IMG/VR virus record: IMGVR_UViG_3300020183_000058
Length of the DNA: 64,000 bases
Source: an uncultured virus (IMG/VR IMGVR_UViG_3300020183_000058)
Taxonomy: Duplodnaviria > Heunggongvirae > Uroviricota > Caudoviricetes > Kyanoviridae
Direction: 5' to 3' (one strand)
How positions within the stretch are numbered: position 1 is the first letter of the stretch; the number at the start of each line of letters is the position of its first letter. Shown piece after piece: positions 20,272-61,600 of this stretch. The translations under genes and the position numbers were made by a program. The notes beneath the pieces are model-generated. The model did no database searches, was not told the origin of the DNA, and saw only the letters and a program-made list of their open reading frames with translations.

Positions 20272-20302
20272 ATTAAACTCCGATAGTAATTCTTTCTATA
20301 TC

Positions 20303-29664: not shown

Positions 29665-29677
29665 TATAATCTCCATT

Positions 29678-37354: not shown

Positions 37355-38890
37355 TTAGAATTCGACTACAATTTTGATATCTTCGATCTGGTCACCAGCA
37401 CGTGAGATTGACCTTCTATTATCTATATAGATTACATCACCAGAGTTCTTATCGATCTCTGGTTTTGCATATCCATTGGTAAATCTCATTCCTAGATCAT
37501 ATTCTGTATTATTAATAGATCTTGTGGATGAGTTTGGAATAATTGGAAAGTTAACATCTGGTTCTGCAGAAGTTCCAGATGATGCTCCAATTACTGGATT
37601 ACCACCTTCAAACTCCGATAATGATCCAGTAATTTCTGGAAAGATACCATCAATTCTATTTTGATAGTATTTTAATACTTTAGTTGTAGAGTTCCAAGAA
37701 ATGACTCTACCTCTAGCAGTAATTTGTTGTCCACCAATAGTTCTTGTTTGAGAGATGATCTCATCAGTTTGATATGATCCAGTAAATGTTGGTGGGAAAA
37801 TAACAGCATATGTTCCAGATAATGTTAATTCAGACGCAAGTTCTGTAGTGCCAAAACGATTTGGATTAATAATAAGACCGATTCTTCGATAATCATTATC
37901 TGTTGGGAAGTCACCAGATCCTTCTGCATAAGAAAACTTGGTATTAATCATGACTCTATATCCACCCAATTCAAATGATGGATCTGAACCATGACCTCCT
38001 TTTGGGGGAATAATCACATCGAGAAGACCACCAGTACCAGTACCAGCTCCAATACCATTGATTTCATCAACAATGATTTGTCCGAAAGAATATTCAGATC
38101 CACCAGAGGTTACGGTTGATGAAACAATCTTACCACCATCTACAACGATAGAAACTCTTCCTCCTGAACCATCTCCTTTAATGGGAACGTTTTCATAAGT
38201 ACCATTGTTATAACCAGATCCCGAAGAGGAAATAATAACAGTATCAATTTCACCTTCTGCTGCTTCTGACTGAACTGCAACATCACTTAGTACTGGCATA
38301 TACTCATTTGAAAAGAATTTCAAAACAGAGCCAACGGGAATAGTATAAACATACTTCCATCTATATCCATCAGTAGTTGTAATTACAGATGTAGAAGTTC
38401 CAGTTGGTTCTACAGTTGATGGTTTTCCATTAGGGTCTGATGGTGAAGTACCATTAAAGATACACTTATATACTTGATACTGTGAGTTTACGACATAAAA
38501 GTCAGCATCATATAGTTTAGTAGCACCAGACGATGCTGTTTTAATGGAAGAATAATCATGACGATACATGTCATATGTGTATCCCAAACCACCTGTTGTT
38601 TGTTCTGGTGGAGTCCAGTCAATACGACGTATAACTTGAATAGTATCGTTTGCTAAAACTCTTTTTAGAGAAATTAGATCATCGTATACATCACTAAACT
38701 GTTGGAATGAGTCAATAGGATCTGGTGGGACATTCTCATTGTCCCACTCTTGTGGTCTTCCAATAAAAACATAAAGACGATCTCTATTTGTTCCTGCAAC
38801 AATGTCCGAAGCAGTTTTATCTGGACCTTCTAAGGTTTTGATAAATCTTTTTGCCGCAAAAACTCTAAATTGGTCGGTAAGTAATGCCAT
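37355..38890 (-). CDS. gp8: baseplate wedge subunit (gp8)
   Basis: LYVFIGRPQEW, YQVYKCIFNG, DGYRWKY, QIEDIKIVVEF. Confidence 0.95.
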   Translation of the reverse strand: MALLTDQFRVFAAKRFIKTLEGPDKTASDIVAGTNRDRLYVFIGRPQEWDNENVPPDPIDSFQQFSDVYDDLISLKRVLANDTIQVIRRIDWTPPEQTTGGLGYTYDMYRHDYSSIKTASSGATKLYDADFYVVNSQYQVYKCIFNGTSPSDPNGKPSTVEPTGTSTSVITTTDGYRWKYVYTIPVGSVLKFFSNEYMPVLSDVAVQSEAAEGEIDTVIISSSGSGYNNGTYENVPIKGDGSGGRVSIVVDGGKIVSSTVTSGGSEYSFGQIIVDEINGIGAGTGTGGLLDVIIPPKGGHGSDPSFELGGYRVMINTKFSYAEGSGDFPTDNDYRRIGLIINPNRFGTTELASELTLSGTYAVIFPPTFTGSYQTDEIISQTRTIGGQQITARGRVISWNSTTKVLKYYQNRIDGIFPEITGSLSEFEGGNPVIGASSGTSAEPDVNFPIIPNSSTRSINNTEYDLGMRFTNGYAKPEIDKNSGDVIYIDNRRSISRAGDQIEDIKIVVEF

Positions 38891-38913
38891 TTCAGTACTC
38901 GTTTTTCCTTAGT

Positions 38914-38921
38914 TATTTATA
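38914..38921 (-). promoter_or_regulatory. late promoter TATAAATA (g8)
   Basis: Exact consensus, intergenic. Confidence 0.88.
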
Positions 38922-38926
38922 CTATA

Positions 38927-41080: not shown

Positions 41081-41102
41081 TTATATATTCTCTCTACTAT
41101 GA

Positions 41103-41110
41103 TATTTATC
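41103..41110 (-). promoter_or_regulatory. late promoter GATAAATA overlapping the protease stop
   Basis: NATAAATA 22 nt before the next ATG. Confidence 0.65.
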
Positions 41111-42764: not shown

Positions 42765-43648
42765 GCCTCTAGTTGCAATAGAGTGAGTGATACTGTAATT
42801 GTATTTGCGGACCCAGATTTATTAGTCACTTTCATGTAAATATTTGATCCTGGTGTAGTATCGTTGTTAAATCCAAATACTGCAGGTGTCATTAGTTGTG
42901 TTTGTGGTCCAGTGGTGATAACTTCTGCAATTACACCAGCACCGTTTGCAGGATCTTCGTCTTCTAATCTACTGTAGTCAGCAGCTCTGCTATTTGAATC
43001 AGTGTAGATAGTAACCCAGGCAGCAGTACTTGTTTGTACCTTTAACAGAGAGTATGACTTAAATCCAGTAACCTCAATATATCCAGATGCATTATTTCCA
43101 AGAACTATAGTATTTGCTGCTACAGTTGTTCTTGAAGACAGACCAACTAATTGTTGACTTAATTCTGCATAATCTGCAATTCTTTTCCAAGCAGATCCAT
43201 CAGAATAATATAATCTATTGGTTGTTGTTACCTTAGCAAGCATACCTGCTTTGGTAGATGCAGTTGGCAGGTCGGGGATATCATTATAATTTGCCCAATT
43301 TAAATCCGCAGCATTTCCAGTTGTAGAAACAGTTGCTAGATTTGGTTTATTTAAGATTTGAGCAATCCCAGATGTAGCATTCCAGTTTGCATTAACTTGT
43401 GGTTGTGGAATAATAGGTAGGTTTGTTAACTCATTATATGATAAAACTGATGATACAAACTGAGTACCATTTGATCTAAGAATTTTACCTGCTACTACAT
43501 CATCAATATTAATTTGTAAATTAGTTCCTGTACCAAGAGATTGGTACAGTTCATCAACCATAGCATTTAATTTACTAGCACCAAATCGTATACTATCTCC
43601 AGTTCCGTCGTTTGGTGAAGTTCCAATATTTAAAGACTGCTTTGCCAT
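42761..43648 (-). CDS. baseplate protein with a gp9/gp10-like N-terminal domain
   Basis: MAKQSLNIGTSPNDGTGDSIRFGASKLN matches the T4 gp9/gp10 N-terminal motif. Confidence 0.8.
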   Translation of the reverse strand: MAKQSLNIGTSPNDGTGDSIRFGASKLNAMVDELYQSLGTGTNLQINIDDVVAGKILRSNGTQFVSSVLSYNELTNLPIIPQPQVNANWNATSGIAQILNKPNLATVSTTGNAADLNWANYNDIPDLPTASTKAGMLAKVTTTNRLYYSDGSAWKRIADYAELSQQLVGLSSRTTVAANTIVLGNNASGYIEVTGFKSYSLLKVQTSTAAWVTIYTDSNSRAADYSRLEDEDPANGAGVIAEVITTGPQTQLMTPAVFGFNNDTTPGSNIYMKVTNKSGSANTITVSLTLLQLEA

Positions 43649-43671: not shown

Positions 43672-43679
43672 TATTTATG
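43672..43679 (-). promoter_or_regulatory. late promoter CATAAATA overlapping the giant-gene stop
   Basis: NATAAATA 23 nt before the gp9-like ATG. Confidence 0.7.
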
Positions 43680-46600
43680 TTTGGTCTAAAGTTAATTGGG
43701 TATTATCTATTGTTGCAGAAGTACTATCAAGAGTTGGATTAAATCCAGTTGGTAAATCGGGAACAAGATTATCAACTAGAACTTCAGGATATACATATCC
43801 TGAACCAGAGTTTGCCACGACTACCTGATATACACCAACTCTTGCTAAGATTTGCCCATCAAAACCAGTTGGTGATAGGACGTTAACAGTTGGTCTTGTT
43901 ATATATCCAGATCCAGGTGCAGTTACCAAAGCAGTATCAATTCTTCCTGGAGTAATGACTGCAGTTGCTTTACCATTTCTACCTTTAACAGATCCAGAGT
44001 ATTCAAATGTTACAAGTGAATTAGATGATTCAATAACAGCAACAGTACGATTTGAATCTTCACCATCAATGAAGATTTCATCTCCAATTTCAATCGGTGG
44101 AACAACAGTTGCTGCAACAACGTCTGCATCAGAACCAATATATGAGAATGCTACGAATGAAGATCCAGCACGAGGAATTTCTGAGAATGTAATTCTTGAA
44201 CCAATTAATTTAAATCCAACCCCAGGTTCCTGAAGAACACCATTGATAGCAACAATAATATTATTTTCAGGCAGAATAATATTTGATTGAACACCTTGAG
44301 TAATTGTCAGTGAGTAGAATACTCCATTAAATTTAAGGTTGAATGAACTTCTAAGTGAATCAAAGTCAAATGAGATATCATCTAACAGTCTTAGTTTACC
44401 AATATAATATGCATTAAACGTAGATCCCGCAGGTGGAGCTTCAGTGAACTGAATATTATCTGCAAAAATAGTATATGCATAGTCTGCTCCAGGTGGTTGT
44501 AGGATACCATTAACAAATACTAATAAGTGACCATCAGAATCTGGGAAGTATGGAGTTCCATTATTGTAAGTTAATTTGAATGATACTGTACTTCCATCAA
44601 AACCTCTTGCATATCTATTGACTCTTGCTACTACTTCAGTAGGATTAATATTGATTAATTTTAATCCACCATTTAATAGTAACTGTTGATTTGATAGGAA
44701 GGTTCCACTTACTTCAGTTAACCATAACTTAAAGTTTCCTCCACTTTGCTCAATTCTAGTAATTTTGCCAGAAGGTGATGATGTGGTAGTATTGACTGTA
44801 AGAACCTGACCAAATATTTTTGGTTGAAGTGTTCCAGGTTGGAATACACCAACTACAGAACTTCCAGTGTTTACATCATTATCAAAATTGCTTGTTTTGT
44901 TGCCAATAAACATTGTACCAGTTACGGAATCATATGAAATGACAGTTGCATATTGACCTGTAGGTAAGTTGTTAACAATAACATCTAGTTTATCACCTTG
45001 TAAGAAAGTGTCAGATGGATTTCCACCAGTAGTAACTGTACTTAAATTAAGTACTAGTTGAGTTACAGTAGATCCTCTTAGATATTCTCCAATTATAGGA
45101 GCATTAAATCCTACAGCATCAAAACAGGATAACAAGACTTCTGATTCAGATGCATATACAAACTCACTATATGAGAACCCACCTTGAAGTGTTTCTGTAT
45201 CTAGTGTTAGTGTACCAGAAGTATTTCCGAGTATTGCTCCAGAATTGTAATTCCATTGATTAATTTTTGCAAAAGCAGCAGAATTTTCCGAATAAATTGG
45301 ACTACCAGTTGAGAATGTTCCCATCATTGGTTTTAGCATCATTTTATTAGATACTGTAGTAATAGTACCAGTAGCACCACTAGTATTTCCTGTTAATACA
45401 TCACCAACTTGTATACCAGGAGAAATAGAAATTAGATCCAAATAGGTACTACCATTAGTTTGATAAACGATAGCAGTATTATTTAATGCATCCTCAACAG
45501 TTTCCCCAGTAACAAATTTAGGAGGATTCTGCCCACCACCTAGTGTGATAGTATATCTATTGTATAATTTTCTAATTTGATATTTGTTGTATTGCAATGC
45601 TGAAATTTCTGCAACCGATGTTGAAGTTTCACCATATATAAATGCTGATGGTTCGAATGAAATTGAGTACGGAATAGGAATTGTTCTAGTTGCATAAGTT
45701 TTTGATGGAACCTCTACCCCAGCATCTCTAGTAATACTAGTGATGTTTGCAGGAGTATTAATTACAAGCTTGTAGATAGCAATTAATGTATCAATATAAG
45801 TTGAAGTATCACCAACAGCCAATGCTTGCTCACTATATCTTGGTTGGTTAGTAGTAGGTCCTAATGGATTTAATGTTTGAGTAACTGCTTTGTTTGCCCA
45901 GAATTTAATTCTATCCAAGTGGAATTTAAGATGGACTGGATTATATCCACTGAAAGCAATAAAATTATAGAACGCATCTAACCAACTTAAGCATCTCGCA
46001 TAAGATTTAGCATTGCCATTTGTAACAAGATCATACAACATGTCAGCAATTATATCAAAACCAAAACTAACTGTTCCAGGATATAGTGGATATGCTTGTT
46101 TAGTATCGTTATATGCTTCATTTGCAATATAACTTCTATTAAACAACAAGAGTTTTGCAGCATTTCTTCTATTCTGTGAACTATACTGAGCAGATTCCTC
46201 AGAAATAATACCTAACAGTAAGTCAAATAGTGTTGAGATTGCAGAAGTTACATTTGCACAACCGTTTGGATTTTGATTAACTGGATCTCCAGTTATAGAC
46301 AAGTTTCTATATGGTTGGACATTTGTATATAATGCAACATATGCCCCTGATGGAGTGTTCGTAGAGTTTTTAGCATAAAGTAAATTGTTAACTGCCTTTT
46401 GAGCAATTGGTTTTGCCAACTCTAAAGATTTATGCATTGCTAATAATTCATCTTCAACAAATAAAATATTAGTGTTAGTATCAAGGTATGTATTAAATGC
46501 ATCCAGGGTTGCATTATTACCACCAGTAATAAGATCCGTCATCATCGCAGGAATGAGATGATCTCTCAAATCCCGAATGCATTTCTGCGTATTTGGATTT

Positions 46601-49600
46601 GTAAATAGATCATAAACAACACCAGTTGGAACATATGTCCATTTGAAATATGCCTCGATTCCCTCAACAACTTCTTCTGCAATATACTGTCTATTAAAAT
46701 ACAGTAAATCTGCAGCATCTCTGAATCTATCTCCAGTTGGTGCTAATATGTCTGCAATAACATCACATAGATAAGTTACTTCATTAGTAACATTTGCACT
46801 ATATGTAGACACCACTGGAATAATAATAATATCCGAATATAGTGTAGTTATAGTATTTGTCAGAATACCATTGATTATTTCTCCAATTTTCTGGTATGCA
46901 TAAACCGATTGTAGTAATTCATTTCCAATAAACTTCACCCCACCTGATTTTTCAAGATATGCTTTGGCAGTATAAACAGTTTGATAATTACCACCAAGAT
47001 TTAAATCGTTAACGATACCATCTACAATTAATCCTGCATCTCTAGCACAAGTATCTGTACCTTCGTATCCACCTGCTTCATCCCCTGGCATAACCAGTAG
47101 TGGATATTTTGCTTTTAAATATCCCATCATTTCATCAACAATAAACTGTTTGTTCTTCCTTACATAATCAGCTGCTTGTCTGTATTCTTCTCTAGCAGAA
47201 TCAATGACCTCAACAACTAATTTTTTAGACAGAGGATCTATCTGACCAATAACAGAAACAGAAGTTCTTAACGCATCATATGTTGCCTCAACATAACTTT
47301 CTGGATAAATATCAGTTACTCCACTTGGACCATCAAAGTGGAATAATAGAATATCTCCAGAATCACCTTCATGTGCTTCTACTTGTGGAGTGAAGTTTGC
47401 AGTATATCTATTAATTGCTGATATTCTCAACTCATCGATTAAACCACGGAAACCAGTACCATCTTGATATGTAGAACCTATTCTTAATGTTTGACCAACA
47501 TAATTTAAGTCGTCTGCAAATGTTTGAGTTTGAAGAACTCCATTAATATACATCTTAGTAGTTAAATTACCTTTAACCACAGCAATATGAGTCCAAGTAT
47601 TTACTGGGATTGTTTCATTAGAAATAATCCTATTAGCACCGTTTGTATAATATACAACTTGATTTAATGTATTGATATACAATGTAGGAACAACCTGAGC
47701 CCCTGGGTTTGATGATCTCATATCAAGTAGATATTGTGAAGTGGCATTTACTGTTTTGTAAATCCACATTTCCATTGTCCAATTATTAGTACCCAATCCA
47801 AGTTTTTCTGGATTATCAATTTTAATATTATTTGTACCAGTGTTGCTTACTCCAAAGGCAGCTGAGGAAATACCAAACTTATTGCTATAAGTTGGTAATA
47901 TCTTATTAGGTACAATTTTTGTAGCAATAATAGTATCTAATGTTAACCATAAAGTATCAATTGCAGATGCAATATCAGCACACTGTGGAGTTGATGTATC
48001 TACAGTAATTGTCGTATCCTTATTTGGTGCTATAGTTGTATATTTTGCAAAATTCAATGTAAAGATTGCAGAACCTGTTCCAGCAGTAGATGGATTTTGG
48101 TTTAATAATAATGTAGTATCTGATAATATTGAAACAACACGGGTGTCGGATGAGAATCCAGTTCCAGTAACATCCATACCTTCAACAATACCAACAGTTG
48201 AAGTTACTGTTAATGTAGTTGATGCAGCTCTAACTGTATTTGGCATGGTAACAGTAAAGTTACGCATTGCTGCAATCATTAGATCTCTACCATACTTATA
48301 TGCTGCTCGTGATTGTTCTTCTTCTCCAAGAATAAATTGAATGTTTCCATTGCCATCTACATAGTAATCACCTGCAGTTATAACTGAAGAATTACCACCA
48401 TACAATAAATCGAATACAAATGCTTCTACAATCTTTCCAATATCTCTCTTACACTTAGTTTCTCCTGGTGAAAAATCACCTGGATTTTCTGCAGGAATTC
48501 CTGCAATACTTCCACTAGTAATAGCAGTAGTTAACATGGTGAATAATGTAGAAATTGTATTCTTAACATTCACGCATGAACTTTCATTTGTGTTTGATGA
48601 CGTACCTGACCCTGGAGTGGGGTCAGCCGTAATTGTTAAATCTTTGTATGGTAATGCGTTTGTAATTGCAGAATAGCACAGATCTCTTGCTGCATTAAAA
48701 GCAGCTACAGCTTGTGCCTCTTCACCAACTAAACCATTATTAATTGGTGCACCATTGGTAAAATAGTATAATGTCGATTGTCTGGTCCACTTGTTACCAC
48801 CATCATATAAATCTTGAGCAATTGATAATACAATCAATCTTATGTCTCTCTTACACTTATCTGGACCACCAGGAACTGAAAATGTAGGATATTGTGATAT
48901 AAGTTGATTGTATGCATTGATAACAATGTAATCAAGATTTCCACGTATTAAGTTTGCCGCATCTTTGTAACGATATGAATTTGATGGGGATTTTGGATAA
49001 TAAAAATCTGGATATTTTCTAGCAATATAACCAATAATTTCTTCTTTGATTAACTCAGTGTTTGCACTAATTCTATTGGCTGCATCAACAAACCTAAAAT
49101 TAGGTGTAGGTGTGAGTCTTACTTTTGGTGTTCCTGTATTAGTGATCTTCCAGTTTGCTAGTCTCTCATTAGCAGTGAATACTCCAGTTGGTGGTTTTAC
49201 ATACAAATAAGCATTTGCTGTGTTTACGCCAATAATTTCTGCTTGAGTTCCACTAGTTAATCCTGTCAGAGTAAATTCTGGGAAGAAGGTGCCTGCTGTT
49301 TTATTCTTGTAAACAATCTTTCTAGATCTAATTGTTTCACCAGTAGTAAATGCACCATCTGTAATAGTAATTGAATTCAGAGAATTTAAGTTACCATCAT
49401 TTAATGCTGTTGTTAAAATTGCAACTAGAGTATCAATATTAGATCTGATGTTTGCACATGAACCTGGATTTGTGTTTCCTGGTGTTCCTGATGTTGGAGA
49501 TGGATCGAATATAATACTCAGATCTTGCTGAGCACCAGGAATTGTTAATCCATTTACTACAGCCAGTTTCATGTAGTCACGAGCTTTATTGAACCCAAAT

Positions 49601-52600
49601 ACTGACTGTATTACTTCTCCGTCTAATCCATAAGATAGCAATTGAGTGTCACTACTAAAGTATTTTTTAGTGTTGGTAACAATGTTAGCATTACCAGCAG
49701 ATGCTAAATCATTACATACCGCATCAATTATATATCCAAGATCTCTTTCGCATTTTGCAGTACTATTATTTGGGAAATCAAAATCTGGATATTCTGCTTC
49801 AATATCATCAATTACCTGATTGATGATTGCAGTTCTATTTAATTGAATTAGTTTCTTGGCATCGAGTCCTCTATGGAAATCTGGTACATTAGCATTAGCA
49901 TATGAAATTTCTACATTTCTAATGTAATCACCTTCAGACCAAGTTCCAGATGAGTTGTCGTATACTAAATTAATATTTTGGGCAAACTCTGATAGGGGGA
50001 AGTTTTGGTTGACAAATTGAGTATAATTATCAACTTTTGCTGCACCAATAATTGTTTTACTAACATCATCAGTAATAGTATTGGGATTTTGTGGTAGAGG
50101 CAGTCTCTCAAAAATCAGACCAAAGAATGAAGATCCAGTGTTAATCGTGAGACTTGAGACAACTTGATTTGTTTGAGGATCTCTATATGGACCAATCTTT
50201 GTAACTTTTGCAACGATTCCAGTTTGTGCACTGATGAAGAAATCATTTAGTTTAATTTCAAATAAACCTGTTTCATACTTAGATGTACCAAAAGTTTTAC
50301 TAATAATGAGTCTATTAGTTTGTGAACCAATATTCCATACACCAGGATTTGAGAAAGGCAATGATGCAATTGATCCACTAGATAATGCATTAGTTAAAAT
50401 TCCAACAATAGTAGCAATTGCAGATCTAACATCAGCACAATTGTTTGGATTTAGGTTAGTATTAGTATTTGGATTTGCTCCTCCATTAGTAGCGGATACT
50501 TTATCTGCATAAATATCAACATCTTTAAATGGAAGTTGATTATTAACTGCTTGCTGCATATAATATACTGCTCTGTTGAAAGCATATATTGCTTGCTCTT
50601 CTTCACCAAGAAGACCATTTACGAGTGGAGCACCATTGTTAAAGTATTTTTTAGTTGTCTCAATTATATTTGAATTACCAGCACCCTTCAAATCTAAACG
50701 AGTAGCATCGACGACATAACCAATATCTCTCCTACACTTATCTGGACCACCAGCTCCCCCAGGAACTGAAAATACAGGATATTGTGTTTGTAGATCATTA
50801 AATGCTTGCTCAATGATATATGTTCTATTACCTTCAATTAAATTAGCTGCATCTTGGAAACGGTTTCCACTTTGTGCTGTTAAATTATTCCAAGCACTAA
50901 TTTGTGTTGGGAATTCTGGGAAATATGTTGCTAAGTTAATTTCTTCAACAATTGCAATTTTTTTGTTGAGATTTGTAATCTGCTCACCAAACTCAAAAAT
51001 TGTATCCTGAATAACAGTAGAAACAGAGACTAAGGTAGCATTTAACCCTGTAGCAGATGCCACAATAGTTTCATTGACCTGGAAAGATCCAACAACATTA
51101 ATTACATCTAGATAAGACGTTGTACTAGAAACAACAACCGCAGTTGCGTTTGTAGTAATACCTCTAATCTGTTGATTGATTTCTGGTAAAATACCTGAGA
51201 TGTTAGAAATTGCAATTCTTTTTACTTGTACAGGTTCAAACTCAATTTCTCTATAAACTACAGAAGCAGGTGGCTTTGGTGGTTCAGTAAATTGGATATT
51301 ACCATTTGCAATCGTATATGATTGTACAGGAGCTTGTACAATACCATTGATAAGAATCATTGACTGACCAGTTGAAGCAATTGCTTGGTCTCCATTGATC
51401 TTAAGTGGGAAAGCTGTTTTTTCTCCATCAAACAGTGAGGATATATCATCAATTTTTTTGACGACTGATGTCAGAATTTCTTCTGATGATGTAAGTCTCT
51501 TATTTCTAAAGATAACATCACTATTATTAAATTCTGAATAAATTGGTTGAGCAGCAGCAAAGTTAATAATCTCTGCAAAATTTGTAAATTCTGAAATGTC
51601 TACTCTCTTAGTAAAATCAGTAGCAACTTTTCTACCAGAAAGATCCTTACCACCTGTTAGATTCAATTGACCAAAGATATTAAATCCAGCAGGGTGGTTA
51701 ATTTTTCTTACAGTATCTCTCCAAGTGTTGATTGGAATTTCACTATTAACCACATATGCAAAGTCTTGATAAAAATAGGAGTCTTGAATTTTTTGTACAA
51801 TCTCTGATGGTTTACCAACGTTATCAATAAATTTACCAGTAGTTTGTGTTAATGAACCAATATTCAATGTTCCTACTGCAGTATTGATGTTATCAATGGT
51901 TCCACTTGCTTTAGAAATAATACCAGTGACTTTTTCACCGACTTTCCAATCCCCAGTATAATCAACTACTTTTAATAGTCTTGGACCAATCTGCCAACCA
52001 TTGTTAGTTGAAACATAACCAACTGCAGAAGGGTCATCTAAATTATTACCTTGGAATACCTTTTCACCTTGTAAGAATCTAGAAGTTTCTACAATTGCTT
52101 CTGCCTTACCACCAAATACCTCAGTAAGTAAAATCTGCTTACCTGAACCATTGTTCAGGAAAGTAATAAATTGACCATTCAGTGCATCTTGAGCTGTGAG
52201 AGCAATTCTTAACTGGTTATCTTCAAGACCATTTATACTACCTGCAATAGCAAAATAAATTTGACCTTCAACTAACGATGTTAAACCTGCCGAAGATGGT
52301 TGTGGTAATTGTCCTATTGTAGATCCAATGTCATCTGCTCTTAAAGAAACTTCAGCTCCAGTACCGATTCCATGAGGGAAATTAAACTGGAAATACCCAA
52401 GGTCAACGTTTACCACATATACAAATTCTGATTTCAATACTACTTTTGGTTCAGATGAATATCCAGATCCAGGATCTTTAACAAAAATTTCCTGAAGACG
52501 ATTGTTTTTAACTGTTGCAACAGCAATTGCACCAGTTCCACCACCACCTTCTATAATTACTGCAGGAGCAGTTGTATACCCAGAACCAGGATTGGTTACT

Positions 52601-55600
52601 TTAATTTCTGTCAATACTGATGTATTAAACAGTTGTAAAATTGTTGGGAAAGTAATTTCTGGTTGTAGTGTATAATCATGAGGGTAGTCAAAACCAAAGT
52701 TATTGTTCTTTAACCTTTTAATTTTACCAACTTGAGTTCCCTGCAGGAACACAGAAGCACCATTACCTTGAGGAGGAATAACTACGTCCAGAATACCTCC
52801 AGAACCTGCCAAACTTGGTCCAAGAATACCAGGGACAGCATCTATTTGAATAAATCCTGTAGTATATCCCTTACCAGGATCAATTAGATCTACATCAGTG
52901 ATAGTTCCAGATACAGGATCACCACCCAATTCTACTGTAATATTAACTTTTCCACCTTCACCATCTCCAGAGATTGGAACATCTTTATATACACCAAGAG
53001 CGTATTCAGTTCCACCATTAGTAATATCAATCCTATCAATCTGTCTATCAGAAGCTATATTAGTAACGATTGGCAGTTTCTTATAGAATCCACCTTTGTT
53101 TACTAATTTAATAGAATTGATTGGACCTGCTGCTTTGATAGAAGTTGTTGAATACGAAGTCGAATCTAAGATTACTGGTCCTTCTGGTTCTCTTTCTAAT
53201 TGGAATTTAAACGTTTTTGAAGTTGGAGTTGCAGTGATTCTAAATTTACCCTTATATGGAGTCTCAACAACGTCAATATACGAATTAACACCCACTGGAC
53301 TATCTGCACCAGTTCTTGCAGGATCAAAGTAATATGAGATATTTGTTACATCACCAATAGTTTTAAATCTAACATAAGGAATTACACCTGGTGGATCAAG
53401 TCCTGGATTTCCACTTCTTGTAATGTTGTTAAATGAATATTCCAACTTGTATTGATTATCTTTTGAAAATGATAGGTAATATCCTGCATTAGATGAATCT
53501 CCAACATCAAAGATATATTGATGTCCTTTAACAAATACTAAAGATGGATGCTTTGCGTAAATATTAACAGCAGTTATAGAAGTGCTGGTAATAGGATCTA
53601 ATTGAGTTACAGATCTTAATGCAAAAGTAAATTCTCTAGTATTGATAACTCTATTGACAAAGAAACTACCATTAAACACATTATATAAGAATCCTTCAAC
53701 AAAGATAATATCTTTTGCAAGATAATTGTGTGCTCTTGATGCAACAACGTAAAGATCTCCAGTATTCGTATTTGATACGGACTTAACAATTTTTCTAAGA
53801 TTTGACTTTAAGGTTATTTTTGTAACTGCAGTGAGACCTGTTAATGTAGCTACAGTATGTGCAGCATTAAATGAAATGTTAACTCCATTAAATCCAATAG
53901 GTACAATATCTCCAGGTAGGAAATTAGATCCCGCAATAACGTCAACAATTTTTAGGACATAATCATCGGCACTATATGCCTTAAATTCTTTTGTGCCAGC
54001 AACTAGATCACTCGTATAATTAGATAGAGGAATTGTAAAAGTGCCAATATTTGTTGTAAATGGAACTTCCAAAAATGTATATTCAAATTCATTAATAGTA
54101 TCGACAGAATCTTTAATTCTAGATGTAGTATTTAAAGTTCCAAAAATTTTACCAATGGTAACATAATCATCACCAGCTTCGATAATCTTACCATAAGCAC
54201 TAACAACGTTTTGTGCATTTTGTCCAGTTCCTTGAACAGTGTACCATTCAAGTTGTGATCCAACTTTAAATCTGCTTGGTTGATTAAATGTAATTTTTTT
54301 AACAATATCAACCTTTGTTACTGAGGAATCTTTAAGATAATACTTATCAATTACATTAGCAGATATCTTAAGTGTTTTTCCAGCAGGTGTTGGAATGGTT
54401 GCAGTCCTAGATGCCCAAGTTTCTGTTCCTGAAGTAAATGTGTAATTTCCAGGCAAGTGAAGGCTAACGGCATCAGAGAAATCCAATAACTGATAACCAG
54501 CACTACCAGGTGAAAACGGACCTACAGTTGCTACTAAGTCTTCATCAATTGAATATGTAACATTTGTTATTAGTACACTGCTAATAGTGTTTAACGAAGT
54601 AACAGCATATGATCCAAGTTTAGTATGGTTGTTGTCAAATTTAATTAAAGAAGAAATATCATATGTTTTTCCAACATTAAAGTGTAGTAATAATGAAGTA
54701 CGAGCATCTTTATCAAATGATGCTGTTGGAACTGTAAAAGTAGTTGTATATCTTGCAAGACCCTTAGTGACTCTAACTTCATCAATAAAACCATTTAGAT
54801 CATATGGACTGTTTCCTACAATATCTCCACCAAGTTTAATACCTCGTGCAGGATAGTTAACTGTATCAACAGCACTAGTTGGTTGAAGAACACCATTAAC
54901 AAATAGTCTAGTTGTTCCACCTGATCTAGAAACTGCAATGTGATACCATGTGTTTGTTACAACTGTTGTGACAGAGAGTAAATTTATACCACTACCTGTT
55001 ATGTACCTAACAACACCAGCTGCGGTAACGTCAATATATGGAGCCACGTCAGAACCAGATGTTCTTTGATCCCATAAAACTCTAGTGTTGGATAGATTAT
55101 TTAAACGAGCCCAAAACTCAATTGTGAAATCACCTGTTTCAAATCCATATCCTGCATTTGATTCTATGGTTACATAATCACCATTTCCATCAAAGGATAC
55201 GGAACTTCCTCCAAATTGATATTGTGCTGTTGAAATAGCAGCATTTCCAACAAATGTTGGTGTTACAATATCAGATGTAGTTACACCAAACACCACCACA
55301 TCTGCAGAACTATCTGAACAAATACTATATCCTTTCCAAGCACCATTTACATTAATTCTAGAATCATTTAAAATAGTACCATTGTGCTTAAATTTAACTA
55401 GATCCACAAAGGAACCAGTTGAAGTTTCTACACTTATACCTAGAGTAACATTATTAAATACATCGACTGTATGACCAACTCCTTTTAATCTAGTGAACGT
55501 AGTTGCTGCTGGAGATATCCTCTTTGCCCATACTGGTTTGTCGTATTGTTCTAGATCAATTCTAAACAGAGTAACTTTCTCTGGTTCAGATGTAGCTACA

Positions 55601-58600
55601 TTAATTTCTGTAGCATATAGGTACATGCCTTCATAATCATCAATCTTAATTTTTGGATTAGTAAATTTGTAGTTTGTTGGGTTTTGTATTCTTCTTCCCC
55701 AATCATGAATTAAATCAATATTATCATATGATAGTCTTCCATAGATAATATCTTCTCCACCTATAATTCCAGTCCAATAAACGTAACCGTCATGGGCATA
55801 GATATCAGTGAGTACTTCTTCTTCTGAATCTGTAGTTAATTTTCTTTTCTCTACAATATCACTCAGTTCTGACATTAATACAAACCACATATCATTGCCA
55901 GATTCACTATTTGTATCTGTATAACCACCAATAATTAGAGCATCTAATTCATCAGACCAATCAATTGCAGTAGCATAATCTCTTCTAGTATTTCCAGAAA
56001 TACCTGCAAGTTCTTTTTGCCATTGGATGATACCATCAGGTTGATTATTACTATTAAAACCAGAAATATACTTAGCAACTAAGACATCAGGATTATATGT
56101 TAAGTTTACAGTATTTTGAATTGTATTTCCAACAACATAAATTGTGTGTGGGTTTGTATCTACAACAACTAATCTATTCCACACTGCAAATTTTACTCCA
56201 GCCGTTGGCGCAGATGGTGTTAGGGTTCTTTTCCATACTAATCTACCATCATTATTAAACTTTGCTAGTACTGCAATACTATCTCCATTATCCCTAATAA
56301 ATCTACCACAAGAATAGATACTTCTATCTTCAGCAATCTTAGAGTCTTGCCACTCAATATAACCACCAGCACCATCAAATTCTGTAGCAAAATAATTTGC
56401 TTTTTTGAAAATTTGAGGATGAGTTACTCGAATTTGTGGAGGATTATCTACATCATATGAATTACCAGAATTTATAATGTTAACTTTTGAAATTCTTCCT
56501 TGTGATTCTAAACTGATATCCAATAATGCATCTTGACCATCACTTGTAATTAATTCATATTCTGCTGGAATATCATTATTATAACCAATACCTTCTTGGA
56601 TTACTGCTACTTGCTCCAATCCAGAAACAGTTTTAACTTTAAATGATTTGAAGTTAGTGTCTAATGCAGCCTCGGTATCAACAATTACAATGTCACCAAT
56701 TGCTAATCCATGGTCATCTTCTGTGGTAATTGTTGCGATAGTATTGACATCATCAAAAGTAGTTGTATAATTTAGAATTTTTGGTCCCTTCACAGACTCT
56801 ACTTTTGCAGATGCACCAAATCCATCAGTTCCTTCATTATCAAATGTAACTTTATCGTTGACTTTATAACTGACACCTGGATTTTCAATGACAAATCCAT
56901 CAATTTGTGCAGATTCAAATTTAGTAATAGTATCTACTTCAATATCAACTTTTGATTCAATATCAACAGATGGGAAATAATCAAATAGTTCTAATGACTG
57001 CTCTTCTGTCAATTCGAGAATTTCATCTTCTTCATCGGGTACAATTAATCCATCATTGTTAGAATCTTGAATTTCAAAGATAATAGTTTCACCATTCTCA
57101 GTAGTAATCGTATCTGTTCTTTGATTTGGTTGTCTATCTGTATCAATATCTACGTCTTCATATGGGTCTCTAAATCTTACAACATCTCTAGGAATATTAA
57201 ATTGTACAGCAGTTTGTGATAAGTTCCACTTATCTACTGCTGAATAATATTGAGGTCCTAGAATATATGGGAATACAGGGTTTCCTTCTGCAGATGCATC
57301 AATAGTTACAAAGTATGCATATGTTCCGTTTGGAAACTCAGGAGTTTTACAGAATCTTCCATTATATTCATCCAAATCTCCTGATCCAAAACCATATTCA
57401 TAATCTTGTATAAATGAACCAGCTGGATGGAATGATAAAGGTGGACCATCAATTCTTTTTGGAATAGGATTAGTATCTACGTTGTATATAATATTTGCTT
57501 TTAATTTATATGAAGTTACTAACCTACGTACTCCTTTAGATGAATCTGTGGGATCTGTGAAACCATATGGTCCGTAAATAGGATTTCCATCAAATGCCCA
57601 TCCAAGAATTGGTGAATGTGAGAATGTTCCTTCTTTTTCTTTAATAACTTGCTGAGAATTTTTGAATACATTATCTCCAAGGACATATCTCAATGTTTGT
57701 GGATTTGATATGTGTGCATATTCACCACCATACTGAGTATTATAACCAGCAAATACATATCCACGAGCAGAATCCAATTTAGTTTTTAGTTGATATTCTA
57801 AATCATATACCCATTGGAATACATTTGTTTTAAAAACCGCACCTTGTCCAATAGATTCCAAACGAATACTAGTTCTACCTTGAGTATAACCTACACCTCT
57901 ATTGATAATCACAACACCAATTACTTTTCCTTTATCTTCACCTATTGTTCCAATAATTGCTTTTGCCTTTGCACCAAATCCATCACCATTAATATAAACA
58001 TTAGGAGCAGTAGTATATCCTTCACCAGAATTAATTACAGCAATTGAAACTACTCTACCATTAATAATGATTGGTTGTGCTTCTGCTTTTACACCAGAAC
58101 TTAAAACAATAGCTGGAACGCTTGTGTAATCTTTACCAGTTTTCGTAACAGTTACTTTTTTAATAGGTCCTCTAACTTGTGCAGTTGCAGTAGCACCATT
58201 GCCGCCACCACCAGAAATGCTGATAAGTGGTTCTGATGTATATCCTTCTCCTGGAGTTTCTACTAAAATTTGAGTAACCACACCATTGGTTACAATTGCC
58301 TTTGCAGTTGCACCAGCTCCTCCTCCACCAACGATAGACACCAATGGTTCTGTTTTATATGCTTCTCCACCTGATGTTACATCAAATGCTGAGATAGCTC
58401 CATTAACTACTACTTCAGCAGAAGCTCCTGTTCCACCACCACCTACGAATGTCAGGGCAGGAGGTGAAGAAGCATCATATCCCTCTCCAGGAACAATAAT
58501 ATCAACATTAGTAATTCCACCATAAACTACAGATTCTTGTGATTTATATGACCATGCTGTTACACCATTAACCCAAGTTGCAATTGCACCTGGTTGGATA

Positions 58601-61600
58601 TTGTATCTTACAGAAGTTGTATTTGCTACTAATGGGAATCTATAAAGTTTTCTCTGATTTCCTGGAATGAGTGCGGAGTTTACAAATGGTCCAATTTTAT
58701 AGTTAGGAATTCCAGTTGCTGCTACATATACATATTCATTATTAAAGAAAGTATTTTGTATATTACTTGTAAAATTAGTAACTAAGTTATTAACTTGAAT
58801 ATCATCACTCTTTCCTTTATTTAAGTCAACTGAAATTAAAATATTTCCTTGAGGTGATAACTCAGCAGGTTGAGGTAATTCATACGAAAAAACAAAATTA
58901 CTAATACGTGCCGAAACTAAGAATGAACCATTATAAACAATTGGATTTGCACCATAAACAGTTACTTGGTCACCAACTAGAAGACCATGAGGATTTGTAC
59001 AGGTTACCGTTGCAGTTTTGTTGTTTAATCCCCCAGGAACAATCTGTTCAATTTTAACTAATTTCTTGACGTTAAATAACCAATTAGTTACTTTTTTATC
59101 TTCTGTAGATGCCCCCAACTTGGCAACATTTAATTTATCTCCAGGCAAATAATATGAACCAGAATTTGTTAATTCTGTAGTTGCTGCTTCTGCAATCCCC
59201 ACCACTTTCAATTTAACTTGATTTGGAGTTCCAGCATTTGCATATAGGAAAATATCAGAAGTGATGGATGTTCCAGCATCCCAATTAGAAGCTACATTGT
59301 TCTTAGAACGAGTACATTCTAAGAACTGATTTAGTGTCTTTTCTTTATATTGAATATATTCCTGAACATCATTTTCTGTGCCTACAATAATGATGCCATT
59401 TCTCTCTGGCCATCCAAGAGTGGAGTCAACAGTTAATATGTTAGTATCTTCATCAACACCTTCTACTAACTTTGTTTTGTATGGGATAATAAAATCACCT
59501 ACTTTAGTTTCTTCTGAAATTGCAATTTCGTAAATTTGATTTTCACCAACAAAAATTGAAATTACATTTTCAACAAGAGCAGATGCATATTTTACATGAC
59601 TATCTACATCATCTTCATACTGCGTGATAATAGTATTGATTAAATTCCCAGGATCCCCATCAATTAATTTAACACGTAAAACGGTATCTACAGACCATGT
59701 AGCTGCTGATGGCTTGAATAATTCTTCTTTGGGATAACTTACTGAAATATTCTCACCAAATATTACCTTGAAGAGATATTCTAAAGCATTTTTAGTTCCC
59801 TTTGACAGATAGAAATCTTTTATTGATTTAATAATCTGAGCAGAATTTACTTTAGTATAATCAATATTAAAAGATGGCAAATATTGATCTACAAATCTTT
59901 TAAAAATTTGAAGTAAAAATAATGAATCTAAATTTTTAACTATGGCACCCTGTCCATGTTGTCTTGGACGAGATGCTAATTCATTTCTAAATACCTGCTC
60001 TCCATTATCATCATAATTAACTACATTACTTACACCCCTACTAACATCAACAAATGCTGAGGGGGTGTATTCGGATCCTTCCGTAAGAATTGTAAATCCA
60101 GTAACTTCACCAACTCCAACATTTGTGGATGCTTTTGCTTCTGGTGGTGGGGAAATGAATACGGTTGGTGGTTCTGATGAAGAATATCCACTACCAAATG
60201 CTGTAATATTAATATCTGTAATTGTACCATTAAAAATTGTTGCAGCTGCTTTGGCTCCTGTTCCACCGAAAGCAAATCCATTAATATCTTTTCTATTATC
60301 GACAATGTATACTGATGGTGGATCAATATATCCAGTTCCACCACTAAGAATTTCAATATTAGTAACACTACCATTATTTACAATTACATCTAAAATTTGT
60401 GCTCCGACAGGATCAATAATTCTAACTCTAGGCTCAAAAGTATATCCGTTTCCTCTAGAAATAACTTGGAAACCACTTACTTGATCGTCAGTTAATACTG
60501 CTCTTATAATTGCTTGATTACTACCTGGCGTTGTTGGTGGATCAACATAAATTATTGGTGGATTTTTGTATCCATTTCCACCCTTAAGAATCGATAGACT
60601 TCCTCCAAGAATTTTTCCCTGTCCATCAATTGCTGCTTTACTTGTAATTTTTGCACCACCAGGATTTGTAAATTTAACTTTTGGTGGAGTAAGATAACCA
60701 GAACCACTATTTAATAGTTTAACCTTGGATACAGATCCAGTCTGATCATCTATAACAACTTCTGCTACAGGTCTAGTTCCGTTCTCGGGTGGATCATCAA
60801 AACTAATTAAAGGTGGATTTAAAGATGTGTAACCTGTTCCACCATACAATAGATTAAAGGTTTTTACACCATCAATCAACGCAACCGCAGTTGCATCTTT
60901 TCCAACTTTTGCATCTATAGTAACTTTTGGAACAAAATTAGTAGAATATCCAGATCCACCATCAATGACGATAATAGATGTAACTTTACTATTTTCAACC
61001 TTAGATATGATTTGTGCTCCTTTACCACTATCTTTAGCAGTATACTCAATAGATCTTATGAAGAGTTTTGAACCTGGTGATGGAGTATCTGTTAGTAAAA
61101 TTTCATTTTTTGATGTAAATACATAATCCTCATATGGAGTCAATAGCACTTTATCCAATGTAACTATTGATAGGATCTCTGATCTTGAAATATATGGTTG
61201 CTGATTTGTTAATAAACGATATTTCTTGGTATTTTCTAAGGTAGTAATTTCATCGAGTGGTTTAACAGCATTCTGTGCAAATCCAAGAAGATATTTGATG
61301 TAAGTTCCACCATCTCCATCAGCAGAGGTTTTTGGTCTAGGTGGAGTAGTAAATATAATATTTGTTCCTGAAATATTATAATCAATATCAGGTTTTAAAA
61401 TTTTTCCATATAGTGAGACAATTAAATGCTCTTTATCAATAGGACTAACTGGTTGTCCAGCAACACGTAACGCATACGTGTTTCTCATAATTGGTGGTGT
61501 ACCAGTTGGAACTAACTGTGGTAATAATGATTCTAATACTTGGTATCTTGAATCAAATTCAACAAGACTAATCCCAGGAGTTAAAACTACATTGGGGGAC

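What the first reader, a model, noticed from the sequence alone, without database searches (positions are those of the whole stretch)
45758..50862. Phycobiliprotein-like domains with intact bilin-attachment motifs inside a giant phage baseplate protein
SEEN: the otherwise beta/Gly-rich 6082-aa protein has seven helical-looking repeats. Six carry C-x-R-D: KCRRDIGY (C3730, nt 50734-36), KCERDLGY (C4058), KCKRDIRL (C4357), KCKRDIGK (C4491), TCARDAGL (C4959), KCIRDLRD (C5115). Each follows a segment like RFQDAANLIEGNRTYIIEQAFNDLQTQYPVFSVPGG. KNOWN (recalled motifs): phycobiliprotein subunits read R..A..(I/L)..N...IV..A...LF...P....PGG...CxRD (alpha-phycocyanin KCARDIGYY, beta ACLRDMEII, allophycocyanin TCLRDLDYY). 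Cys84 binds the bilin, Arg86 the propionate and Asp87 the pyrrole nitrogens. The spacing here fits that layout. The repeats lack the N-terminal X/Y helices used for alpha/beta pairing. INFERENCE: host-derived antenna-protein folds were built into a virion protein and may carry bilins. Possible roles are light-dependent adsorption or baseplate triggering, photoprotection, or binding to host structures. I know of no description of this, but could not search the literature.
Basis: partly seen in the sequence, partly recalled or inferred. Interest (0 to 1): 0.95.

Follow-up and report, generated by a model that had tools for sequence, protein, structure and literature searches.

The report
Phycobiliprotein-like domains in cyanophage baseplate protein
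A giant baseplate protein of a marine cyanobacterial virus contains seven domains that are true relatives of its host's light-harvesting pigment proteins, with the pigment-attachment residues kept in six, so the virus particle may carry light-absorbing bilins.

Summary
The 6082-aa ORF (43675-61923, minus strand) lies between gp6 and gp8 homologues of a T4-like cyanomyovirus. It has six C-x-R-D motifs at the stated residues, where chance predicts 0.04.

They sit in seven copies of a ~170-aa helical domain that is a real phycobiliprotein (PBP) homologue:
- Pfam PF00502 scores 71 bits.
- Repeat profiles hit only PBPs among the 60 listed solved-structure matches (best E 2e-6).
- hhalign against CpcA gives 95.7% probability.
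- The AlphaFold model matches PBPs best (Z 15.8, rmsd 2.2 Å).
- The X/Y helices are absent.

A second conserved Cys aligns with beta-Cys153, and most copies elsewhere have only one Cys. So a disulfide does not explain why the motif Cys is conserved.

Both tblastn queries against 50,697 phage records hit only cyanophages, apart from one unassigned marine virus. In a 27-genome panel, 14 genomes carry the domain. CpeT, a bilin lyase whose role in phages is unresolved, was found in 12 of those 14 and in 0 of the 13 without the domain.

Bilin binding is untested. In many isolates the Arg is replaced, and P-SSM4 copies lack the Cys.

I found no paper describing this. The scan noted the same thing earlier on other DNA (e1-6479697).

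The parts
43675..61923 (-). 6082-aa giant baseplate (gp7-position) virion protein that carries the domains
   Evidence: ORF list and translation. PHROG 701 'virion structural protein', E 6e-224. Pfam Baseplate_wedge PF23786 at 27.8 bits against a cut-off of 27, plus YHYH and two Laminin_G_3 domains. The P-HM1 counterpart is annotated gp7.
50353..50880 (-). PBP-like domain 1 (aa 3682-3857); KCRRD Cys3730 at nt 50734-50736; second Cys3829 at nt 50437-50439
   Evidence: HMM envelope. PF00502 at 21.3 bits. AlphaFold model pLDDT 83.4, pTM 0.83. Structure search Z 15.8 to phycoerythrin beta.
49372..49884 (-). PBP-like domain 2 (aa 4014-4184); KCERD Cys4058; second Cys4156
   Evidence: PF00502 at 15.3 bits.
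48985..49098 (-). Extra copy of the N-terminal helix hairpin alone (aa 4276-4313)
   Evidence: HMM match to profile positions about 8-45 only. The same stand-alone module is seen 113 times in relatives.
48490..48987 (-). PBP-like domain 3 (aa 4313-4478); KCKRD Cys4357; second Cys4450
   Evidence: PF00502 at 22.7 bits, over the 22.2 cut-off.
47920..48468 (-). PBP-like domain 4 (aa 4486-4668); it starts directly at KCKRD Cys4491 with no N-terminal hairpin; about 40 aa are inserted before the last helix; second Cys4648
   Evidence: Two HMM pieces, 4486-4584 and 4626-4668. No Pfam hit on its own.
47419..47841 (-). Laminin_G_3 (concanavalin-like) domain between PBP-like domains 4 and 5
   Evidence: PF13385, E 2e-18.
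46738..47202 (-). PBP-like domain 5 (aa 4908-5062); TCARD Cys4959; no Cys at the canonical second site, Cys5053 lies 10 residues later
   Evidence: PF00502 at 17.9 bits.
46189..46734 (-). PBP-like domain 6 (aa 5064-5245); KCIRD Cys5115; second Cys5222
45727..46194 (-). PBP-like domain 7 (aa 5244-5399), degenerate: neither Cys is present (SFGFD in place of the motif)
61944..63911 (-). gp6 baseplate wedge homologue directly upstream (context)
   Evidence: PHROG 219, E 1e-170. Pfam Gp6 domains, weak.
37355..38890 (-). gp8 baseplate wedge homologue downstream (context)
   Evidence: Pfam Phage-Gp8, E 1.6e-15. PHROG 438, E 2e-213.

Best explanation
The seven repeats are true homologues of phycobiliproteins: a bilin-binding globin fold without the X/Y dimerisation helices, fused in tandem into the gp7-position baseplate protein of a T4-like cyanomyovirus. 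This step is shown; I put it at about 0.95.

The rest is inferred. The six canonical copies probably still take up a bilin (PEB or PCB) in the infected cell and attach it by a thioether bond at the Cys84-equivalent Cys, about 0.45. Copies that keep a second Cys may attach another bilin at the beta-Cys153-equivalent position. The bilin would come from host or phage haem oxygenase and bilin reductase. The phage's own T-type lyase CpeT, whose substrate is unknown, is the best candidate for attaching it.

A baseplate or tail fibre carrying a chromophore would give the particle a light sensor. The most likely use is gating adsorption or baseplate triggering by light, about 0.25.
For: HOMOLOGY
- PF00502 scores 71 bits, E 1.5e-19, over aa 3650-5400 in four stretches.
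- Profiles of the repeats hit only PBPs among the 60 listed matches to solved-structure sequences, best E 4e-6 and 1.8e-6.
- hhalign of 22 phage domains against 25 real CpcA gives 95.7%, E 8.7e-9. Against 24 CpcB it gives 79%, E 1.6e-5. The motif Cys falls on Cys84/Cys82, and the second Cys falls on beta-Cys153.
- The AlphaFold model has pLDDT 83.4. All listed Foldseek hits are PBPs, TM 0.45-0.61.
- In the search of 48,161 chains the top 8 are all PBP family: Z 15.8, rmsd 2.2 Å, 145 residues, model 1-169 against chain 26-184. Other globins score 10.8 or less.

CONSERVATION OF THE BILIN SITE
- In 1515 copies from the 150 best of 1554 representative proteins plus this protein, Cys is kept in 1472, Arg in 1426, Asp in 1500, and the full triad in 1406.
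- 894 of 1247 copies with the motif Cys have no other Cys. The motif Cys occurs without the second Cys in 293 of 505 copies. Its conservation is therefore not explained by an intradomain disulfide.

HOST RESTRICTION
- 363 of 363 records (one is an unassigned 'Marine virus') and 86 of 86 records are cyanophages, out of 50,697 phage records.

LINK TO A LYASE
- In 27 genomes, CpeT (PF06206, E <= 1e-3) is present in 12 of 14 with the domain and 0 of 13 without it.
- The two misses, P-SSM7 and S-ShM2, are listed as CpeT-like in Table 3 of PMC3037559 (passages read).

LITERATURE (passages read)
- CXRD is the bilin-attachment motif of PBPs, and BBAG globins that carry it attach bilins without a lyase (PMC10151467).
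- The roles of phage pcyA/pebS and cpeT are called a mystery and unresolved (PMC3037559).
- P-HM1 and P-HM2 do not adsorb in the dark, while P-SSM2 and P-SSP7 do. [quoted passage not shown]
- In my panel P-HM1, P-HM2 and S-PM2 carry canonical copies, and P-SSM2 and P-SSP7 carry none.
Against: - No experiment or coordinate-level check was possible. The tools give no model coordinates, so pocket shape and the Cys-Cys distance were not measured.
- The match to PBPs covers mainly helices B and E (Pfam profile positions 25-87 of 155). The register of the F-G region differs between the CpcA and CpcB alignments.
- In 14 isolate genomes only 21 of 58 copies keep C-x-R-D. Many read C-x-D-D or C-x-T-D: Cys in 50 of 58, Asp kept, the propionate-binding Arg lost. 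Seven of the 14 phages show no canonical copy in the stretches examined.
- All detected P-SSM4 copies lack both Cys although the phage has CpeT.
- The 93% triad figure comes from the best-scoring 150 representatives and is biased upward.
- Near-invariant residues that PBPs lack (Asp at Cys+14 in 97%, a Tyr in 99%, GGN) suggest a site that differs from the PBP site.
- Copies without the N-terminal hairpin exist, which would leave one wall of a PBP-type pocket open.
- P-SSM2 has haem oxygenase and a bilin reductase but no domain. Phage bilin synthesis therefore does not depend on the domain.
- Phages with the S-type lyase lack the domain.
- The second Cys almost never occurs without the first (3 against 195), which would also fit a disulfide in the copies that have both.
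- The CpeT correlation rests on few independent lineages.
- The link to adsorption rests on five phages.
Confidence: 0.45

Rival explanations
1. An exapted scaffold. A PBP-type globin domain was captured once and is now only a rigid helical building block of long baseplate and fibre proteins, with no bilin. The conserved Cys and Asp serve other chemistry, such as disulfides between domains or subunits that harden the particle in sea water, or a metal site.
For: - The domain is modular and highly repetitive, with up to 36 matched stretches in one protein. N-terminal hairpins and C-terminal modules also occur on their own.
- Arg is replaced by Asp or Thr in many isolate copies while Cys and Asp stay.
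- Extra invariant Asp, Tyr and Asn residues are absent from PBPs.
- Copies that lose the first Cys also lose the second in isolates, and the second Cys is rarely present alone.
- P-SSM4 keeps the domain without any Cys.
Against: - 894 of 1247 copies have a single Cys, so any disulfide would have to be between domains.
- A purely structural role does not explain why the PBP chromophore triad is the best-conserved feature (1406 of 1515). It also does not explain restriction to cyanophages or co-occurrence with a bilin lyase.
- By the CpcB alignment the two Cys sit at the beta-82 and beta-153 positions. From recalled PBP geometry, not measured here, those sites are far apart.
Confidence: 0.38
2. 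A bilin-bearing domain with a role other than sensing. The chromophores could quench or screen light to protect the particle. They could act as a folding or assembly check that couples virion maturation to the host's pigment metabolism. Or the domains could simply sequester bilins.
For: This rests on the same evidence for bilin binding as the best explanation. In addition, 7 of 14 domain-bearing isolates lack canonical copies, so a uniform sensing function is not obvious. Cyanophages are exposed to strong light in surface water (general knowledge).
Against: Nothing points specifically to this. The location in the baseplate and tail-fibre-like proteins, not the capsid, fits poorly with protecting the DNA. 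The adsorption phenotypes line up with presence of the domain.
Confidence: 0.1
3. Chance resemblance or a generic helical repeat. The C-x-R-D motifs and the helical pattern would mimic PBPs without common descent.
For: Single repeats score only 15-23 bits against PF00502. Three of the seven give no hit. Identity to PBPs is 13-21%.
Against: Chance predicts 0.036 motifs against 6 seen. All 60 listed solved-structure matches are PBPs in both profile searches. hhalign gives E 8.7e-9. The PBP family fills the top 8 of 48,161 chains, well above other globins.
Confidence: 0.02

Closest known systems
Phycobiliprotein alpha and beta subunits (phycocyanin, phycoerythrin, allophycocyanin; Pfam PF00502)
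   Same: - Globin-like fold of helices A, B, E, F, G and H (Z 12.1-15.8).
- Helix B, then Y/F-P, a loop and K-C-x-R-D-(I/L)-G-Y ... G-G in the same register.
- A second Cys just before the last helix, where beta subunits carry Cys153.
   Different: - No X/Y helices, so no alpha-beta dimer of the PBP kind.
- Never found as a free ~170-aa subunit. Only 2 short fragments were found among proteins of 85-352 aa.
- It occurs as tandem copies inside virion proteins of thousands of residues.
- 13-21% identity to PBPs.
- It has its own invariant residues (Asp at Cys+14, GGN, a Tyr).
- Encoded by phages.
ApcE (core-membrane linker) bilin-binding domain
   Same: A PBP-type domain embedded in a large multidomain protein. 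It is a structural match: Z 13.7 to 4xxi_A and Z 12.1-12.7 to full-length ApcE chains.
   Different: ApcE has one such domain and belongs to the phycobilisome. From recall, not tested here, its bilin Cys is not at position 84 and attachment is autocatalytic. The phage protein has seven copies with the Cys at the position-84 equivalent.
BBAGs (bilin biosynthesis-associated globins) of heterotrophic bacteria, PMC10151467
   Same: They are distant PBP paralogues outside the phycobilisome. BBAG-1 and BBAG-3 keep CXRD and bind bilins without a lyase (passages read). This shows that CXRD in such a globin predicts bilin binding.
   Different: BBAGs are free-standing cytoplasmic proteins encoded next to haem oxygenase and pre-PcyA genes. 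I did not compare sequences with them, because none was at hand.
Photocobilin / photoglobin and RsbR-type sensor globins
   Same: The same globin superfamily is used here as a sensory module. They are the next-best structural matches (Z 10.6-10.8).
   Different: They have no CXRD motif and score clearly lower than PBPs. They are cellular signalling proteins.
T4 gp7 baseplate wedge protein
   Same: Same gene position between gp6 and gp8. The P-HM1 counterpart is annotated gp7. There is a borderline Baseplate_wedge Pfam hit.
   Different: T4 itself has no match to the PBP-like domain profile. The cyanophage protein carries many added domains.

Membership tests
Phycobiliprotein (Pfam PF00502) | Sequence match to the family model above its gathering score | tested here: met
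   The region aa 3650-5400 scores 71 bits against a cut-off of 22.2. Single repeats score 21.3, 15.3, 22.7, none, 17.9, none and none, so only 1 of 7 passes alone. Only profile positions about 25-87 of 155 are matched.
Phycobiliprotein (Pfam PF00502) | PBP-type globin fold (helices A/B, E, F, G, H) | tested here: met
   The AlphaFold model (pLDDT 83.4) matches phycoerythrin beta at Z 15.8, rmsd 2.2 Å over 145 residues. The top 8 of 48,161 chains are PBP family. All listed Foldseek hits are PBPs.
Phycobiliprotein (Pfam PF00502) | Cys84-x-Arg86-Asp87 chromophore site on helix E | tested here: met
   Six of seven copies in this protein have it. It aligns column for column with Cys84 of CpcA and Cys82 of CpcB. 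It is not universal in relatives: 21 of 58 copies in isolates.
Phycobiliprotein (Pfam PF00502) | N-terminal X and Y helices that form the alpha-beta monomer | tested here: not met
   Structural alignments start at PBP residues 26-29. hhalign starts at template column 27 (CpcA) or 35 (CpcB). Nothing helical precedes the domain in the model.
Phycobiliprotein (Pfam PF00502) | Free subunit of about 160-180 aa that assembles into discs and rods with linkers | tested here: not met
   The copies are embedded in a 6082-aa virion protein. A search among proteins of 85-352 aa found only 2 fragments from contigs of about 570 bases.
Phycobiliprotein (Pfam PF00502) | Covalently bound bilin | not testable with these tools
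   This needs expression with bilin synthesis genes, or mass spectrometry of virions.
BBAG-type bilin-binding globins | CXRD motif in a PBP-like globin | tested here: met
   The motif is defined in PMC10151467.
BBAG-type bilin-binding globins | Gene neighbourhood with haem oxygenase and a ferredoxin-dependent bilin reductase | tested here: inconclusive
   The genes scanned next to the ORF (37355-43648 and 61944-63911) gave only baseplate-type hits and a subtilase, no haem oxygenase or bilin reductase. The window's own genome is not held. In P-HM1 and P-HM2 these genes exist but lie far from the domain genes.
T4-type gp7 baseplate wedge protein | Position between gp6 and gp8 and a match to a baseplate wedge model | tested here: met
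   gp6 lies at 61944-63911 and gp8 at 37355-38890. PF23786 scores 27.8 bits against a cut-off of 27. The P-HM1 homologue is annotated gp7. Presence in the particle is inferred, not shown for this phage.

The most novel reading that the evidence does not exclude
Particles of many T4-like cyanomyoviruses are biliproteins. The phage-encoded lyase CpeT exists to put bilins onto PBP-like domains of the virus's own baseplate and tail-fibre proteins, helped where present by phage haem oxygenase, PebS or PcyA. This gives the free virion a photoreceptor that lets it adsorb or fire only in the light. The reading would explain two long-standing puzzles together: why phages of hosts without phycobilisomes carry bilin genes and a lone cpeT, and why adsorption of S-PM2, P-HM1 and P-HM2 needs light independently of host photosynthesis.
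Probability: 0.25. Interest if true: 0.97.

Novelty: new variant of a known kind. Interest (0 to 1): 0.86.

Why it matters
Phycobiliproteins are known as antenna subunits of cyanobacteria and algae, and more recently as BBAG globins of bacteria. A large lineage of the same fold built into virus particles is not in the literature I could search. That lineage has 1554 representative clusters at 50% identity, with up to 36 matched stretches in one protein.

If the domains carry bilins, a virus particle would have its own photoreceptor. To my knowledge that has no precedent.

The finding turns two open questions in marine virology into bench experiments with existing strains (S-PM2, P-HM1/2, Syn9): the purpose of phage cpeT, ho1, pebS and pcyA, and the mechanism of light-dependent adsorption.

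The co-occurrence with CpeT found here (12 of 14 against 0 of 13 genomes) gives a concrete candidate substrate for an enzyme whose target is not known. These phages kill a sizeable share of the ocean's main primary producers, so light-gated infection would matter for models of diel mortality.

Tried and rejected
- Intradomain disulfide as the reason for the conserved Cys: rejected for the motif Cys, because 894 of 1247 copies have one Cys only and the first Cys occurs without the second in 293 of 505. It is not excluded for copies that have both.
- Chance motif: rejected.
- Free-standing homologues: only 2 fragments.
- Megablast of the region against phage records: no match. Protein-level search was needed.
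- Searching the window's own genome for cpeT, bilin reductase and haem oxygenase: the assembly is not held. The nearest record, G001, is a 44-kb fragment rated 25% complete with no match, which says nothing.
- Link to S-type lyases: S-CREM2 and S-CBWM1 have weak CpeS matches but no domain, so this was dropped.
- Link to phage bilin synthesis genes: P-SSM2 has both genes but no domain, so there is no simple link.
- ESM Atlas look-up: no usable hit.
- The search for related loci with the 7-repeat alignment failed for lack of a conserved stretch. A single repeat worked.
- Literature: eight searches found no description of PBP-like domains in phage structural proteins. The library lacks most subscription journals. 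Two papers could not be read and are cited from reference lists and recall only: Gasper et al. 2017 on phage CpeT (not held) and Jia et al. 2010 on light-dependent adsorption.
- No phylogeny of the domain against PBP classes was attempted, because identity is too low.
- The second structure job and the complex job were not used.

Full report
CONTEXT
The window is the structural-gene block of a T4-like cyanomyovirus, with all large ORFs on the minus strand. Pfam and PHROG scans identify the following, among others:
- major head protein (7575-8945), scaffold and portal
- tail sheath (13196-15922) and terminase
- gp15 and the neck proteins
- a 1972-aa protein with an Mtd_N domain
- a 2OG-Fe(II) oxygenase
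- a 2392-aa DUF4815 protein
- gp8 (37355-38890)
- a subtilase and a gp9/10-like protein
- gp6 (61944-63911)

The 6082-aa ORF at 43675-61923 lies between gp6 and the gp8 group. It matches PHROG 701 'virion structural protein' (E 6e-224). It gives a borderline Baseplate_wedge hit (27.8 bits against a cut-off of 27) and carries YHYH and two Laminin_G_3 domains. Its P-HM1 counterpart is annotated gp7. That the protein is in the particle is inferred from synteny and annotation; it is not shown for this phage.

THE OBSERVATION
The protein has only 21 Cys. Its composition predicts 0.036 such motifs, and no shuffle out of 1000 gave more than one.

An HMM of the repeats delimits seven copies of a domain of about 155-180 aa, plus one extra copy of its N-terminal helix hairpin. 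Copy 4 starts directly at the motif and has an insertion. Copy 7 has lost the Cys.

A second Cys precedes the last helix in five copies, in a C-(A/V)-(D/N)-(I/V) context.

WHAT THE DOMAIN IS
Four independent lines say it is a phycobiliprotein homologue.
1. Pfam PF00502 scores 71 bits (E 1.5e-19) over the region in four stretches. Single repeats score 15-23 bits, and the match covers profile positions 25-87 of 155.
2. I built two profiles: one from the 7 window repeats, and one from 22 full-length copies (6 from the window, 16 from IMG/VR contigs). Both find only PBPs among the 60 listed matches to solved-structure sequences. The best E-values are 4e-6 and 1.8e-6, covering PBP residues about 33-105.
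3. I fetched real cpcB-cpcA loci from cyanobacterial genomes and aligned 24 CpcB and 25 CpcA sequences. hhalign of the phage profile gives 95.7% probability and E 8.7e-9 against CpcA. Against CpcB it gives 79% and E 1.6e-5. The motif Cys falls on Cys84/Cys82.
4. An AlphaFold model of copy 1 (pLDDT 83.4, pTM 0.83) has six helices. All listed Foldseek matches in the PDB are PBPs (E from 2e-3, TM 0.45-0.61). In the search of 48,161 chains the top eight are all PBP family. The best is phycoerythrin beta: Z 15.8, rmsd 2.2 Å, 145 residues, model 1-169 on chain 26-184. The set includes the ApcE bilin-binding domain at Z 13.7. The next matches (RsbR, photocobilin, sensor globins) score 10.8 or less.

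THE TWO CYSTEINES
The CpcB alignment places the second conserved Cys on beta-Cys153, the site served by T-type lyases. That part of the alignment carries no printed confidence and should be taken as moderate evidence. The ranges of the structural alignment are consistent with it.

A profile search of 1.84 billion representatives found 1554 proteins at E <= 1e-3, with 548 at E <= 1e-30. They are mostly thousands of residues long and have up to 36 matched stretches. I examined 1515 copies from the best 150 representatives plus this protein:
- Cys is kept in 1472, Arg in 1426 and Asp in 1500.
- The full triad is kept in 1406.
- 894 of 1247 copies with the motif Cys have no other Cys.
- The second Cys is present in 225 of 535 copies that cover its position.
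- Among the 505 copies that cover both sites, 293 have only the first Cys, 195 have both, 3 have only the second and 14 have neither.

So an intradomain disulfide cannot be why the motif Cys is conserved.

The sample is biased towards canonical multi-copy proteins. In the domain stretches of 14 isolate genomes I counted 58 copies that cover the motif:
- 50 have the Cys, and all 50 keep the Asp.
- Only 21 have the full C-x-R-D.
- Tail-fibre-like proteins of S-PM2 and Syn1 and the gp7 of P-HM1/2 are canonical.
- The gp7-position giants of Syn9, Syn10, Syn19, S-SSM5, P-RSM4 and P-SSM7 read C-x-D-D or C-x-T-D.
- The P-SSM4 copies have no Cys at all.
- In isolates, copies that lack the first Cys also lack the second.

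These results count against a uniform bilin site. The protein in this window, with six canonical copies, is at the well-preserved end.

DISTRIBUTION
- tblastn of aa 3650-4460 against 50,697 phage records hit 363 records: 284 Synechococcus, 60 'Cyanophage', 18 Prochlorococcus and 1 unassigned 'Marine virus'.
- A divergent representative (P0008) hit 86 records of the same kinds only.
- Named BFVD structure matches are all Synechococcus phage tail or structural proteins, plus uncultured caudoviruses.
- Seven of nine representatives scanned also pass PF00502.
- No free-standing form was found.

A GENOME PANEL
I searched 27 complete phage genomes in six frames with the domain profile.

Fourteen have the domain, with 3-13 matches each: S-PM2, P-HM1, P-HM2, Syn9, Syn10, P-SSM4, Syn1, P-RSM4, P-SSM7, Syn19, Syn33, S-ShM2, S-SSM5 and S-SM1.

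Thirteen do not:
- T4-like cyanophages P-SSM2, S-SM2 and S-SSM7
- cluster-C phages S-CREM2, S-B68, S-N03 and S-CRM01
- S-CBWM1, S-TIM5, the siphovirus P-SS2, the podoviruses P-SSP7 and Syn5, and T4

Pfam's own PF00502 model gives weak matches (E <= 0.01) at the same places in 12 of the 14, and in none of the 13.

The lyase family CpeT (PF06206, E <= 1e-3) is found in 12 of the 14 and in none of the 13. The two misses, P-SSM7 and S-ShM2, are listed as CpeT-like in Table 3 of PMC3037559. Syn1, which that table lists as lacking cpeT, has a clear match (E 1.5e-35).

The negatives among T4-like cyanophages fall into cluster C and three further genera. The number of independent events is therefore small, and no phylogenetic correction was made.

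Bilin synthesis genes do not follow the domain. I searched for them only in the first 12 genomes. P-SSM2 has haem oxygenase and a bilin reductase but no domain; P-HM1/2 have both genes and the domain. S-type lyase matches occur in two phages without the domain.

LITERATURE
Passages read from four papers:
- PMC10151467 states that CXRD is the PBP attachment motif and that BBAG-1/3 globins with this motif bind bilins without lyases.
- PMC3037559 calls the role of phage pcyA and pebS a mystery and that of cpeT unresolved, with cpeT in 12 of 16 genomes.
- PMC10452541 notes that only cyanomyoviruses carry HO, PcyA and CpeT, with PebS also in one podovirus.
- PMC6628666 reports that P-HM1 and P-HM2 do not adsorb in the dark, while P-SSM2 and P-SSP7 do. 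[quoted passage not shown]

In my panel the three light-dependent phages have canonical copies and the two dark-adsorbing ones have no domain. That is five phages, which is suggestive only.

Eight searches found no paper describing PBP-like domains in phage structural proteins. Subscription journals are largely outside the library. Gasper et al. 2017 and Jia et al. 2010 could not be read.

I reached the same reading independently.

VERDICT
The domain is a new, large, phage-borne lineage of the PBP/bilin-binding globin family. It lacks X/Y helices and is fused in tandem into baseplate and fibre proteins.

Whether it carries a bilin is open; I put it at about 0.45 for canonical copies. The main rival is a scaffold domain whose Cys and Asp serve other chemistry, at about 0.38.

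The boldest reading not excluded is a virion photoreceptor loaded by phage CpeT that gates adsorption by light. I give it about 0.25. It is directly testable with existing phages.

Noticed in passing
window 41106-42764 (-): A subtilase-family (Peptidase_S8, E 7e-31) protein is encoded inside the baseplate gene block, between the gp9/10-like gene and a baseplate wedge gene. Sullivan et al. 2010 mention an S8 peptidase found only in P-HM1/P-HM2 among the 16 cyanophages they compared.
   Followed up: no
window 23179-29097 (-), with + strand ORFs at 24599-25651 and 25949-26539: A 1972-aa structural protein starts with an Mtd_N (major tropism determinant N-terminal) domain. Two long ORFs lie on the opposite strand inside it, and GC skew turns positive only in 24001-28000. 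I did not examine whether this reflects repeats or composition.
   Followed up: no
window 29119-29676 (-): A 2OG-Fe(II) oxygenase gene sits among the structural genes. In S-PM2 a 2OG-Fe(II) oxygenase directly precedes the domain-bearing giant ORF, and cpeT lies 1.5 kb upstream of it.
   Followed up: no
window 57292-57738 (-), aa 1396-1544 of the giant protein: There is a YHYH domain (PF14240, E 4e-30) and a second Laminin_G_3 domain (aa 2245-2385) in the N-terminal two thirds of the same protein.
   Followed up: no
P0004, P0008 (metagenome representatives): The domain is modular. The N-terminal helix hairpin forms tandem arrays of its own (113 stand-alone hits). C-terminal modules starting at the Cys follow one another without hairpins. 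One protein has 36 matched stretches.
   Followed up: partly
NC_015288.1 (Syn1) 19950-20462: There is a clear CpeT match (E 1.5e-35), although Table 3 of PMC3037559 lists Syn1 as lacking a CpeT-like gene.
   Followed up: partly
L082 and L083: The phycocyanin-alpha motif scan returned contigs in bins labelled Rhizobium sp. and Candidatus Obscuribacterales. This is probably bin contamination by cyanobacterial contigs.
   Followed up: no
bioRxiv 10.1101/2024.12.13.628456: A preprint reports a cyanobacteriochrome-like ORF in a freshwater cyanophage. That is a different bilin photoreceptor fold in a phage. No virion location is claimed in the passages I saw.
   Followed up: no
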